Below, in pieces: positions 4,501-62,764 of a stretch of 64,000 bases of DNA. Origin of the DNA: Eledone cirrhosa. Lineage: Eukaryota. A program made the translations under genes and the position numbers. Location of the stretch: contig OZ024743.1 of the NCBI GenBank assembly GCA_964016885.1, positions 62,000,001-62,064,000 on the forward strand, read 5' to 3'. The first letter of the stretch is position 1, and the number at the start of each line of letters is the position of its first letter. The notes under the pieces were generated by a model. That model ran no database searches. It was not told the origin of the DNA and worked only from the letters and a program-made list of their open reading frames with translations.

Positions 4501-4932
4501 TCCATTTTATTAGATGGTTCAACAAGGCCTTGAATAAGACTTTCTACCGATTCGAACATTTCAGGCGTGAAGATAAGTTGCACAGAAACGGTATCGTCCA
4601 AGGGATAAGAATTTCACCTTTCTCTCTACCTAAACACCACCACCACATCTGTTAAAACTAAATCTGTGCACTCCATCACTGCAATTCAGCAAATTCATTG
4701 AGTGAGCTAGACGGTGGCCGGGGACCGTGAATTAATACCAGCGATCTTCGTTAATTTTATATTGTCTCTCTCTCTCTCTCTCACTATATATATATTAGAA
4801 AGTGAGGTTTTTTTTACAAAATGAAAAGTAACCGAGGTGTCCTACACGAGTGAAAGTATAAAGAAAAAGAGATGAAATCGAAAATGCAACTGGAGTCTTA
4901 TTTTTTTTTTAAATATATATATTTATTTGGTT

Positions 4933-4970
4933 CCTTTACCGGTTTCGCAGTTCTTCTCCTTTTCAAAAGG
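4933..4970 (-). ncRNA. Type I hammerhead ribozyme, U3-A8 core variant (family shared with 23043)
   Basis: Minus strand CCTT-TTGAAAA-GGAG aagaa CTGC-GAAAC cg GTA-AAGG; stem I CCTT/AAGG, palindromic stem III ACCGGT, one stem II mismatch. Confidence 0.65.
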
Positions 4971-5179
4971 TGAGTTGAGATGGAGGGTCTGTGGTTTTTC
5001 TCACATCTGGTTGGTCTCTGAATGTTACTTGTTTTATATGGAAAAAGTGGCTCGAAATGCCAGGTTTTTCGAGAAGTAATTTGATTGGTTTGTCAATAAT
5101 TATAATAAATTTCGCGCCAGTTCGCGTTACAATAGTTCTTCAAATAAGAGGGGGGGGGGTTGTCACAGGTTGTTTTTTC

Positions 5180-5950
<771 letters not shown>

Positions 5951-5987
5951 GGAAGATGATTCTATTAGTAGAAATGGGGGAGGGAGT

Positions 5988-6039
<52 letters not shown>

Positions 6040-22513: not shown

Positions 22514-22677
22514 TCACTGAGGAGGTCACAGAAGGTCTGACGAAAGAACTTGAGACAATATATAAACAACCATCCGTTCATTGAACCAACCAACTGGAAA
22601 TTTATAATAAATTGAAGTGATACCCTCAGGTGCGTGTGTTTTTATTGGCAGCATCACCCTTCCAAAGTATAACAATA
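22514..22677 (+). mobile_element. Solo pLTR fragment of the 39810-41388 Penelope family, starting at its hammerhead
   Basis: TCA-CTGAGGA-gGTCAcagaaggtcTGAC-GAAAGAACTT...CCAAAGTATAACAAT aligns to 41193-41386; (TA)n on both sides. Confidence 0.8.
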
Positions 22678-22837: not shown

Positions 22838-22911
<74 letters not shown>

Positions 22912-23042
22912 AGTGAGGTTTTTTTTACAAAGTGAAAAATAACCGAGGTGCCCCACACGAATGAAAGTATAAAGAAAAAAAGATGAAATCGAAAATGCAA
23001 CTGGAGTCTTATTTTTTTAAAAATATATATATTTATTTGGTT

Positions 23043-23080
23043 CCTTTACCGGTTTCGCAGTTCTTCTGCTTTTCAAAAGT
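23043..23080 (-). ncRNA. Type I hammerhead ribozyme, U3-A8 core variant, in element 22908-23116
   Basis: CTT-TTGAAAA-GCAG aagaa CTGC-GAAAC cg GTA-AAG on minus; element is a close copy of 4797-5008. Confidence 0.7.
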
Positions 23081-23118
23081 AGAATTGAGATGGAGGGTCT
23101 GTGGTTTTCTCACATCTA

Positions 23119-23160
<42 letters not shown>

Positions 23161-28207: not shown

Positions 28208-28296
28208 TCGAAATATAATACGTGAATGTAATAGGTAAAATCCATGGGGCTGAGCCCCATGGATTTTACCTATTACATTCACGTATTATATTTCGA

Positions 28297-48972: not shown

Positions 48973-49217
48973 ACTCACTCTCTCTCACTTTCTCTCTGTG
49001 ATATTTGAATCTACTATGATTTGGGCTTATCTTATTCCTATATATATATATATATATTAGAATTGGAGCTCTGAAATAGCAATATATATATGGATGTATA
49101 TATAATGTATTTTGCAATACACTTTATGCTTAATTAAAAGCATTTTGAAGACCGTAAGCTATTGTTTTAGAGTAGTGACAAATTCACTTACTTTGATCTC
49201 AGCAAACAGGGGAGATA

Positions 49218-49262
49218 AGCCGACAAGGTCTTGTTTCGCTTTTGTTGAAGCTTATCAAGGCT
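49218..49262 (-). ncRNA. Type I hammerhead, U3-A8 variant (mirror copy)
   Basis: Reverse complement of 49671-49715 with one loop III change. Confidence 0.8.
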
Positions 49263-49670
49263 AACTACTCCCTCCTGTCTACCGAGATCACTGATGTTAT
49301 ATTCTTATAGAATTCTAGTAAATAATCAGGAACTGATTATACAGAGCGGTTGTTGGTCAGGCAGAAATTAAAAATTAGAATTGGAGCTCTGAAATAGCAA
49401 TATATATATGGATGTATATATATAATGTATTTTGCAATACACTTTATGCTTAATTAAAAGCATTTTGAAGACCGTAAGCTATTGTTGTAAAGTAGTGACA
49501 AATTCACTTACTTTGATACATCCATATATATATTGCTATTTCAGAGCTCCAATTCTAATTTTTGCTTTCTGCCTGACCAACAACCGCTCTGTATAATTAG
49601 TTCCTGATTATTTACTAGAATTCTATAAGAATATAACATCAGTGATCTCGGTAGACAGGAGGGAGTAGTT

Positions 49671-49715
49671 AGCCTTGATAAGCTTCAACAAAAGCGAAAC
49701 AAGGCCTTGTCGGCT
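49671..49715 (+). ncRNA. Type I hammerhead ribozyme, U3-A8 core variant
   Basis: AGCC-TTGATAA-GCTT caacaa AAGC-GAAACAA ggcc TTGTC-GGCT; stem I extends via GGGAG/CTCCC. Confidence 0.82.
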
Positions 49716-49911
49716 TATCTCCCTTGTTTGCTGAGATCAAAGTAAGTGAATTTGTCACTACTCTAAAACAATAGCTTACGGTCTTCAAAATGCTTTTAAT
49801 TAAGCATAAAGTGTATTGCAAAATACATTATATATACATATATATATATGTTTTTGCATGTCAGTTAGATTAAAACTTACAATGATTGGCATTATATATA
49901 TATATAAACAC

Positions 49912-55272: not shown

Positions 55273-55386
55273 CAGTATTAACAATTGTTTCATTGATCAG
55301 GTGAGCCTAAAGGTTGCTAATCACTCGAAGTTACGTCACTCGACTTAAGTACAGTGTGTGTGTCTGATCAAATCATCGGAAAACTG
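55273..55386 (-). ncRNA. Hammerhead-like motif, U4C core, long stem II (mirror copy)
   Basis: Near reverse complement of 55515-55629. Confidence 0.6.
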
Positions 55387-55514
55387 GAGGGTGTAACGCA
55401 TGGCATTGGTATTTATAGATACCAATGCCATGTGTTACACCCTCCAGTTTTCCGATGATTTGATCAGAGACACACACTGTACTTAAGGATACCAATGCCA
55501 TGTGTTACACCCTC

Positions 55515-60665: not shown

Positions 60666-60696
<31 letters not shown>

Positions 60697-60817
60697 ATAT
60701 AGACATAGAATATTCGAAAATATTCTGTATGTTTATAATAAACATTTTGAAGACCTAATCGCTATAGAATAGAATACGTCACGTATTACAATTAGATTCT
60801 CGATAAAAGCAAGGGAA

Positions 60818-60860
60818 GTAATCTACGCGTTTCATTCTTGTTAGAAATCTTCAGGACTAC
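60818..60860 (-). ncRNA. Minimal type I hammerhead (identical copies 61128-61170, 61438-61480, 61748-61790)
   Basis: GTAGTC-CTGAAGA-tTTCT aaca AGAAt-GAAAC gc GTA-GATTAC on minus. Confidence 0.88.
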
Positions 60861-62119
60861 ATATCCAGTGCTTTTATCGAGAATGACACAGCTAGAGACT
60901 TATAGAATACTTAGCTGTGTACAGGAACTGGTTTGAAAGAGCGGTTGCCGGTCCGGCAGAAATTAGAAATTGGAATAAATGCTCTGAAATAGCGATATAT
61001 ATGTGAATATAGACATAGAATATTCGAAAATATTCTGTATGTTTATAATAAACATTTTGAAGACCTAATCGCTATAGAATAGAATACGTCACGTATTACA
61101 ATTAGATTCTCGATAAAAGCAAGGGAAGTAATCTACGCGTTTCATTCTTGTTAGAAATCTTCAGGACTACATATCCAGTGCTTTTATCGAGAATGACACA
61201 GCTAGAGACTTATAGAATACTTAGCTGTGTACAGGAACTGGTTTGAAAGAGCGGTTGCCGGTCCGGCAGAAATTAGAAATTGGAATAAATGCTCTGAAAT
61301 AGCGATATATATGTGAATATAGACATAGAATATTCGAAAATATTCTGTATGTTTATAATAAACATTTTGAAGACCTAATCGCTATAGAATAGAATACGTC
61401 ACGTATTACAATTAGATTCTCGATAAAAGCAAGGGAAGTAATCTACGCGTTTCATTCTTGTTAGAAATCTTCAGGACTACATATCCAGTGCTTTTATCGA
61501 GAATGACACAGCTAGAGACTTATAGAATACTTAGCTGTGTACAGGAACTGGTTTGAAAGAGCGGTTGCCGGTCCGGCAGAAATTAGAAATTGGAATAAAT
61601 GCTCTGAAATAGCGATATATATGTGAATATAGACATAGAATATTCGAAAATATTCTGTATGTTTATAATAAACATTTTGAAGACCTAATCGCTATAGAAT
61701 AGAATACGTCACGTATTACAATTAGATTCTCGATAAAAGCAAGGGAAGTAATCTACGCGTTTCATTCTTGTTAGAAATCTTCAGGACTACATATCCAGTG
61801 CTTTTATCGAGAATGACACAGCTAGAGACTTATAGAATACTTAGCTGTGTACAGGAACTGGTTTGAAAGAGCGGTTGCCGGTCCGGCAGAAATTAGAAAT
61901 TGGAATAAATGCTCTGAAATAGCGATATATATGTGAATATAGACATAGAATATTCGAAAATATTCTGTATGTTTATAATAAACATTTTGAAGACCTAATC
62001 GCTATAGAATAGAATACGTCACGTATTACAATTAGATTCTCGATAAAACCAGTTCCTGTACACAGCTAAGTATTCTATAAGTCTCTAGCTGTGTCATTCT
62101 CGATAAAAGCACTGGATAT

Positions 62120-62162
62120 GTAGTCCTGAAGATTTCTAACAAGAATGAAACGCGTAGATTAC
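62120..62162 (+). ncRNA. Minimal type I hammerhead (second copy 62430-62472)
   Basis: GTAGTC-CTGAAGA-tTTCT aaca AGAAt-GAAAC gc GTA-GATTAC. Confidence 0.88.
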
Positions 62163-62625
62163 TTCCCTTGCTTTTATCGAGAATCTAATTGTAATACGTG
62201 ACGTATTCTATTCTATAGCGATTAGGTCTTCAAAATGTTTATTATAAACATACAGAATATTTTCGAATATTCTATGTCTATATTCACATATATATCGCTA
62301 TTTCAGAGCATTTATTCCAATTTCTAATTTCTGCCGGACCGGCAACCGCTCTTTCAAACCAGTTCCTGTACACAGCTAAGTATTCTATAAGTCTCTAGCT
62401 GTGTCATTCTCGATAAAAGCACTGGATATGTAGTCCTGAAGATTTCTAACAAGAATGAAACGCGTAGATTACTTCCCTTGCTTTTATCGAGAATCTAATT
62501 GTAATACGTGACGTATTCTATTCTATAGCGATTAAGTCTTCAAAATGTTTATTATAAACATACAGAATATTTTCGAATATTCTATGTCTATATTCACATA
62601 TATATCGCTATTTCAGAGCATTTAT

Positions 62626-62764
<139 letters not shown>

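What the first reader, a model, noticed from the sequence alone, without database searches (positions are those of the whole stretch)
22908..23116. Second, apparently unrelated family with a U3-A8 hammerhead (UUGAAAA); copies at 4933 and 23043
Seen: two copies 18 kb apart both keep UUGAAAA, GAAAC-CG-GUA and pairing stems. Each has a different single stem mismatch, so the consensus pairs fully (CCUU/AAGG, GCAG/CUGC). I see no flank similarity to the 318 bp family. Inference: the same compensatory core arose or spread independently, perhaps favoured by AT mutational bias.
Basis: partly seen in the sequence, partly recalled or inferred. Interest (0 to 1): 0.72.

Follow-up and report, generated by a model that had tools for sequence, protein, structure and literature searches.

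The report
Hammerhead leader of a Penelope retrotransposon
The two repeats are pieces of a very abundant, young jumping gene of the known Penelope type, and their ribozyme-like motif carries an already described base-pair swap; most copies still contain the predicted cut site intact, so the motif likely cuts slowly or seldom before the RNA is copied.

Summary
The two copies are real (93% identical; minimal type I hammerhead, U3-A8 core, minus strand). They are not a stand-alone family. [quoted passage not shown] U3-A8 is inherited from source elements: no C3-G8 match was found. U3-A8 in PLE hammerheads is in print (Schistosoma, PMC4209133), and this scan noted it before on other DNA of this genome. 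The stem I 'mismatch' at 23080 marks a subfamily of 3,590 exact matches, not private decay. Among 100 copies taken in genome order, 53 start 61-75 nt upstream of the predicted cut, about 30 nt behind a TATA box; 88 span the scissile bond; 3' ends fall at +79 or +142. The 209-bp unit is therefore most likely the RNA leader copied from an internal priming site on uncleaved RNA. A sister PLE (10,374 matches) has U3-A8 plus A13C. Cleavage and expression are untested. Verdict: a new member of a known kind, with useful side observations.

The parts
22908..23117 (-). Copy 2: solo, 5'-short insertion of the PLE leader/pLTR end, from the 5' hotspot (-72) to the long 3' end (+142)
   Evidence: (94% to element L103)
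23043..23080 (-). Minimal type I hammerhead, ACUU-stem-I subfamily; core U3-A9 at 23076-23070, stem II 23069-23057, GAAA 23056-23053, predicted cut between 23047 and 23046
   Evidence: cleavage not tested
23048..23053 (-). Palindrome ACCGGU (stem III region); predicted 6-bp intermolecular duplex, -8.3 kcal/mol
22908..22967 (-). About 60-nt optional 'tail' between the two fixed 3' ends (+79 and +142); in full-length elements it lies just ahead of the ORF1 ATG
22841..22908 (.). (TA)n array at the 3' end of copy 2 (insertion target)
23117..23157 (.). (TA)n array at the 5' end of copy 2
4797..6004 (-). Copy 1: 5'-truncated insertion of about 1.2 kb, 3' UTR/pLTR only (with an internal ~350-bp duplication), no ORF
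4933..4970 (-). Minimal hammerhead of copy 1 (CCUU stem I; G for C in stem II, which breaks one pair)
5032..5038 (-). TATAAAA, 30 nt upstream of the A of AGATG where most short copies begin; candidate TATA box
   Evidence: function inferred
5084..5088 (-). CCAAT about 80 nt upstream of the same A; candidate CCAAT box
   Evidence: function inferred

Best explanation
The 209-bp repeat is the hammerhead-bearing pLTR end of a young Neptune-type Penelope-like retrotransposon with at least 11,000 copies, and the short copies likely arise when its reverse transcriptase primes inside the RNA leader and copies back to the RNA's 5' end on a template that the hammerhead has likely not yet cut. Shown: the repeat continues through a 1.0-1.3 kb UTR into an RT + GIY-YIG frame; full-length copies carry direct or inverted partial copies upstream; insertions sit in (TA)n; 3' ends fall at two fixed sites; 5' ends cluster at -61 to -75. 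Inferred: a promoter in the pLTR (CCAAT -79, TATA -30) starts the RNA about 72 nt before the predicted cut; the endonuclease nicks (TA)n on both strands; the two DNA ends prime at +79 and +142 (both end in a TA-like microhomology), giving two-armed insertions; priming in the leader yields 150- or 210-nt copies (copy 2), and priming in the downstream pLTR yields longer 5'-truncated copies (copy 1). The U3-A8 core keeps the 3-8 pair and was fixed once in the ancestor of this family and its sister. The ribozyme is predicted to be slow, needing a partner through the ACCGGU palindrome or the element's protein.
For: Link to the ORF: L002, L010, L015, L016, L028 run on into GIY-YIG coding sequence (PF01541 E 5e-7). 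11 of 150 scored matches have a 775-codon frame with RVT_1 (E 5e-6, below the curated cut-off) and GIY-YIG (above it). 12 of 12 long-ORF copies fetched have the hammerhead about 1 kb behind the ORF; 5 of 12 have a direct upstream partial copy, 4 more only an inverted one, 3 neither. Neptune marks read from the sequence: CX4CxxC linker, CxxC inside GIY-YIG, DKG (definitions in PMC8557442). Of 21 insertions in the first 30 core matches, 17 are two-armed; each pairs one long end with one shorter end, exactly +79 in 13. Of 100 copies in genome order: 5' ends 53 at -75..-61, 88 at or before -6, 4 at -3..+4 (2 exactly at the cut); 3' ends 56 at +142, 33 at +79. TATA at -30 and CCAAT at -79. U3-A8 in 75 of 75 parsed copies, 8 unparsed. 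Two compensated pairs against the sister family. The anole PLE primes internally at two sites, uses unprocessed RNA and needs protein for hammerhead cleavage (PMC11167929).
Against: No RNA evidence for the start site or for cleavage. The clade rests on motifs, not on a tree with reference PLEs. The D. virilis Penelope promoter is described as TATA-less (PMC2377424 abstract), so a TATA promoter here would differ. 12 of 100 copies start at or after the predicted cut, which random truncation or some cleavage could explain. Cleaved and religated circles would also keep the bond, though they would not explain a 5' hotspot. The covariation rests on only two events between two related families (134 of 500 shuffles reach 2 pairs). 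The 100 copies come from one 27-Mb stretch of C1 and include paired arms, so they are not fully independent.
Confidence: 0.8

Rival explanations
1. The hammerhead is now vestigial or serves only as a structure (for example a protein-binding site); cleavage is not needed for this lineage to spread.
For: 88 of 100 copies span the scissile bond. A subfamily with only 3 contiguous stem I pairs reached 3,590 exact matches. The sister family changed the normally invariant A13 to C and has an all-A-U 3-bp stem I, yet has 10,374 matches. The monomer hammerhead fold evaluates at -0.4 to +7.0 kcal/mol against MFE folds of -6.2 to -8.1. Catalytic mutants did not impair insertion in the anole PLE in vitro (PMC11167929).
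Against: Both families keep UUGAAAA, G12, A14, A15, U16, A17 and the ACCGGU palindrome at 56% RT identity, with two compensated pairs. All 12 long-ORF copies have the fully paired CCUU stem. U3-A8 is itself compensatory.
Confidence: 0.25
2. The -72 hotspot is an RT stall or template-switch site, or the end of a processed RNA, rather than a transcription start.
For: Inversion junctions fall at the same site. No RNA data.
Against: TATAAAA lies 30 nt and CCAAT 79 nt upstream. The sister family has a CATAAAA motif and short copies starting at a similar place (seen by eye, not counted).
Confidence: 0.15
3. It is an independent 209-bp non-autonomous family (SINE-like or retrozyme) with its own hammerhead.
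For: About half of the copies are only 150-210 nt long.
Against: The same sequence is the terminus of full-length coding elements. No head-to-tail arrays of the unit were seen: the C3 array is a ~930-bp unit of other sequence that carries one copy each. Short copies are explained by fixed 5' and 3' ends.
Confidence: 0.05
4. U3-A8 arose several times in this genome because AT-biased mutation drives C3-G8 to U3-A8 through a tolerated U3-G8 step.
For: Both changes are GC-to-AT transitions. The 318-bp family is unrelated to this element and resembles a C3-G8 array. One copy with U3-G8 was seen (L053), though it is more simply a later mutation.
Against: At least ten other hammerhead families in the same loci keep C3-G8. 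The element is 37% GC, like the window. Within this lineage the change is a single ancestral event. No tree across families was built.
Confidence: 0.35

Closest known systems
Minimal hammerheads in PLE pLTRs, including the U3-A8 variant of Schistosoma mansoni Cercyon elements (Cervera and de la Pena 2014, PMC4209133; parts 1-2 of 4 read)
   Same: Type I, short stem I, G10.1-C11.1, palindromic short stem III, U3-A8 core, mostly solo copies from truncated PLEs, some in opposite-strand pairs
   Different: 4-bp stem II and no extra base after A9; 11,336 near-identical matches against about 1,300 heterogeneous hits; the sister family adds A13C
Neptune-clade EN+ PLEs (as defined in Craig et al. 2021, PMC8557442; passages read)
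   Same: RT with DKG, CX2-5CxxC linker, C-terminal GIY-YIG with internal cysteines, (TA)n target, tandem and inverted partial copies, optional tail
   Different: Tail of about 60 nt rather than 30-40; a separate ORF1 joined by a likely -1 frameshift (the Fig. 1 legend mentions an optional ORF1 frameshift in PLEs, but the figure showing which clade was not visible)
Poseidon element of Anolis carolinensis, PAc (Frangieh et al. 2024, PMC11167929; parts 1-2 of 4 read)
   Same: Two internal priming sites that bracket the tail, AT-rich target cut on both strands, unprocessed RNA as main template
   Different: PAc has a C3-G8 core overlapping the ORF start and primes inside the ORF; here priming maps to the 5' UTR ahead of ORF1, and the evidence is genomic only
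Animal non-LTR retrozymes (bioRxiv 10.64898/2026.07.22.740005; part 1 of 5 read)
   Same: Type I hammerhead, PLE-related
   Different: Retrozymes are tandem non-coding units; this sequence is the end of a coding element. The 318-bp and 310-bp families in the window fit retrozymes better

Membership tests
Type I hammerhead ribozyme | Core C3 U4 G5 A6 N7 G8 A9 / G12 A13 A14 A15 / U16 H17, with a Watson-Crick 3-8 pair | tested here: met
   All met, with U3-A8 in place of C3-G8; this covariation is natural and reported active in vitro (PMC3088659 passage)
Type I hammerhead ribozyme | Stems I-III supported by covariation | tested here: inconclusive
   2 compensated pairs between this family and its sister; stem III invariant; only two events
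Type I hammerhead ribozyme | Self-cleavage after H17 | not testable with these tools
   No assay; only 2 of 100 genomic 5' ends lie exactly at the site
PLE minimal (dimer-type) hammerhead | Short palindromic stem III, located in the pLTR | tested here: met
   ACCGGU, predicted self-duplex -8.3 kcal/mol; in both pLTRs of L101-L103
EN+ Penelope-like element | RT plus GIY-YIG endonuclease in one frame | tested here: met
   775-codon frame; GIY-YIG above the Pfam cut-off, RVT_1 E 4.9e-6 below it; DKG and GxKF motifs in the sequence
EN+ Penelope-like element | pLTRs from partial tandems, inverted 5'-truncated copies, optional tail | tested here: met
Neptune clade | C-terminal EN with CX2-5CxxC linker and CCHH cysteines; (TA)n targets | tested here: met
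   CGRSNCGTC linker and CKGC in GIY-YIG; TA flanks
Neptune clade | Placement in an RT phylogeny | not tested
   No reference PLE sequences were available from the tools used
Naiad or Hydra clade | N-terminal EN and DKA (Naiad); no CCHH and DKT (Hydra) | tested here: not met
   EN is C-terminal, DKG, cysteines present
Non-LTR retrozyme | Non-coding head-to-tail tandem units, each with a hammerhead | tested here: not met
   The unit is contiguous with a coding element; no head-to-tail arrays of the unit in the loci examined

The most novel reading that the evidence does not exclude
This PLE lineage is losing hammerhead chemistry while keeping the fold: U3-A8 in the common ancestor, a weakened stem I in one subfamily, and a fixed A13C in a 10,000-copy sister family, with nearly nine in ten insertions copied from uncut RNA. 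Either a doubly changed core (U3-A8 with C13) still cleaves, which would widen the hammerhead consensus, or the motif has a non-catalytic job in PLE transposition. The natural series makes the open question of what PLE hammerheads are for directly testable.
Probability: 0.3. Interest if true: 0.55.

Novelty: new member of a known kind. Interest (0 to 1): 0.3.

Why it matters
The U3-A8 core itself is not new. The value is that a young family of over 11,000 copies records PLE mechanism in the genome: a likely start site, two priming sites used one per arm, and templates that mostly keep the cut site. This extends an in vitro result on one lizard element to an in vivo record in another clade. The two related families give a natural series of hammerhead cores (CCUU, ACUU, A13C) for asking whether cleavage matters to transposition. 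Standard CUGANGA...GAAA descriptors would miss over 20,000 motifs in this genome.

Tried and rejected
Rfam scan: no hammerhead among the 150 of 275 rows shown, which are nearly all microRNA models hitting simple repeats. Repeat finder on the whole window: swamped by microsatellites. The tandem array at C3:68.08-68.11 Mb was fetched as a possible full-length tandem; it is a ~930-bp unit of other DNA carrying one short copy each. Sequencing runs: no RNA holder listed, so no reads were laid and nothing follows for expression. ESM Atlas on ORF1: best hits gag/PNMA-like at 0.85 and 0.84, under the tool's 0.9 mark, a lead only. No stimulatory structure behind the slippery heptamer is shared: a weak hairpin (-8.7 kcal/mol) in this family, none in the sister; pseudoknots were not modelled. 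An outgroup hammerhead for a third PLE family (L105, L223) was sought and not found, so no tree of core states was made. Literature searches with no hit: 'hammerhead' + 'A13C'; 'Penelope-like' + 'ribosomal frameshift' + 'GIY-YIG'; 'hammerhead ribozyme' + 'A13' + 'C3-G8' + 'inactive'. 'hammerhead' + 'octopus' + 'ribozyme' gave nothing on this family by its listing. Lunse et al. 2017 on PLE hammerhead dimers was not held; I saw only its title and a review's account (PMC6765202 passages). It, the supplements of PMC4209133 and PMC8557442 (not opened), and Repbase may already list this family or A13C.

Full report
Observation. The stretch 22908-23116 aligns to 4797-5007 at 93%. On the minus strand each holds a type I hammerhead outline: stem I, UUGAAAA, a 4-bp stem II with a 5-nt loop, GAAA, CCGG, UA, AAGG. 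The predicted cuts lie between 23047/23046 and 4937/4936. The 23 kb copy lies between two (TA)n arrays. The window is G000:C4:62000001-62064000 of a 3.0-Gb animal genome; that it is cephalopod-like is my inference and an earlier AI note, not tested.

Copy number and core. A 32-nt pattern that leaves positions 3, 7 and 8 free has 11,336 exact matches against 0 for the reversed control; 99 of the first 100 listed are U3-A8. Forcing position 3 to be not U gives 59 matches, all listed, none with G8. In 100 copies picked by a motif downstream of the ribozyme, 75 of 75 parsed cores are U3-A8 and 8 could not be parsed. So U3-A8 is inherited from the source elements. Stem I has two states: CACCUU (35 of 75) and CUACUU (32 of 75; 3,590 exact matches genome-wide). 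The stem II change in copy 1 is a rare departure.

What the repeat belongs to. Eight of the first 30 loci continue upstream into shared sequence, as does the window copy at 4.8 kb, to about 6004. In L002, L010, L015, L016 and L028 this leads to a GIY-YIG coding end. Searching with that peptide gave 150 scored matches at 95-100%, 11 in 775-codon open frames. I fetched those 11 and one of 769 codons. All 12 carry the hammerhead about 1 kb behind the frame, with the CCUU stem. The frame has RT and C-terminal GIY-YIG matches, a DKG motif, a CX4CxxC linker and two cysteines inside GIY-YIG. Five of 12 have a direct partial copy upstream, four more only an inverted one, three neither. By the definitions in PMC8557442 (passages) this is a Neptune-type EN+ PLE of about 4.7 kb; no tree was run.

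How the short copies likely arise. In the 100 copies (the first 100 of 15,194 matches, all on C1), 3' ends lie at +142 (56) or +79 (33) from the predicted cut, 11 elsewhere. 5' ends lie at -75..-61 in 53, further upstream in 28, at -57..-6 in 7, at 0..+4 in 4 and at +7..+23 in 8. A TATAAAA starts 30 nt and a CCAAT 79 nt before the A at -72. Among the 21 insertions represented by the first 30 core matches, 17 are two-armed, and each joins one long end to one shorter end, exactly +79 in 13. In full-length elements the +142 end runs straight into the ORF1 start. The simplest reading (inference) is that the pLTR holds a promoter, the RNA starts near -72, the hammerhead sits in its leader, and RT primes at +79 and +142 from the two nicked strands of a TA array. 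Priming in the leader runs off the RNA end and gives the 209-bp unit. This matches the anole PLE, which primes at two internal sites bracketing the tail, uses unprocessed RNA and shows hammerhead cleavage only with protein (PMC11167929). Against it: no RNA data, a TATA-less promoter in D. virilis Penelope (PMC2377424 abstract), and 12 copies starting at or after the cut.

Is the ribozyme active? Not tested. The palindrome ACCGGU gives a predicted 6-bp duplex of -8.3 kcal/mol, while the monomer hammerhead folds evaluate at -0.4 to +7.0 kcal/mol. This fits the dimer-type minimal hammerheads, which cleave weakly in vitro (PMC4209133). U3-A8 is natural and reported active (PMC3088659) and was found in S. 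mansoni PLEs with about 1,300 hits (PMC4209133). That 88 of 100 copies span the scissile bond implies that cleavage before reverse transcription is uncommon, or is undone by ligation.

Sister family. A related PLE (ORF2 about 56%, ORF1 about 44% amino-acid identity) carries UUGAAAA, GCAUU/AAUGC, GCAA, CCGG, UA. It has 10,374 exact matches, 98 of the first 100 with C at position 13. Two pairs are compensated between the families, C-G to U-A in stem I and G-C to U-A in stem II; this is only two events. U3-A8 therefore predates their split. I found no paper on A13C in two searches, but the most relevant paper was not held and supplements were not opened.

Independent origin and AT bias. The 318-bp family (window 49081-49852; tandem and inverted copies genome-wide) has no match to the element (best E 2.9) and a weak match to the C3-G8 310-bp array at 60685-62636 (E 5e-7). 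Its hammerhead has a long stem III and a GUC site. Separate origins are thus plausible. AT bias is possible but unshown: at least ten other families in the same loci keep C3-G8 (counted by eye).

Earlier notes of this scan, read after my own analysis, report U3-A8 in PLE ends and two-armed insertions with fixed ends elsewhere in this genome. They are not independent support. Look-ups near this place and by the ORF1 sequence returned nothing.

Verdict. Real; a new member of a known kind; interest 0.3. The side findings (start-site hotspot, uncut templates, A13C sister, conserved slippery heptamer) are worth more than the headline claim.

Noticed in passing
L216 (minus strand, hammerheads at 1765 and 6570 counted on that strand); L217, L219: Sister PLE family whose hammerhead has U3-A8 plus GCAA in place of GAAA (A13C); 10,374 exact matches genome-wide.
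   Followed up: partly
L103:3080-6516: A 400-aa ORF1 overlaps the RT-EN frame, which has no Met before codon 163, in the -1 frame. A U UUU UUA heptamer lies in the overlap in 12 of 12 long-ORF copies, and the same 12-mer is in 5 sister copies with different flanks: likely -1 frameshifting. ORF1 has no Pfam match and only a weak gag/PNMA-like lead.
   Followed up: partly
window 49081-49852: The 318-bp U3-A8 family (UUGAUAA, long stem III) as an inverted pair; tandem arrays elsewhere; weakly similar to the 310-bp C3-G8 array.
   Followed up: partly
window 60685-62636: Two-armed array of near-identical 310-bp units, each with a C3-G8 minimal hammerhead (CUGAAGA ... GAAACGCGUA); retrozyme-like.
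   Followed up: no
window 17010, 17461/17815, 47999, 50012, 58033, 22517: Further C3-G8 hammerhead-like motifs of different families; the one near 22517 looks decayed.
   Followed up: no
L031-L033 (G000:C3:68084700-68107800): Array of 26 units of about 930 bp, each carrying one short copy of this family after other sequence; a solo insertion amplified as part of a satellite-like unit.
   Followed up: partly
L064:2935-6287: An APE-type non-LTR element with long frames (338 and 819 codons) lies just upstream of a broken PLE copy.
   Followed up: no
window 28211-28293 and 55363-55468: Perfect or near-perfect hairpins (inverted repeats) that gave sub-threshold microRNA matches.
   Followed up: no
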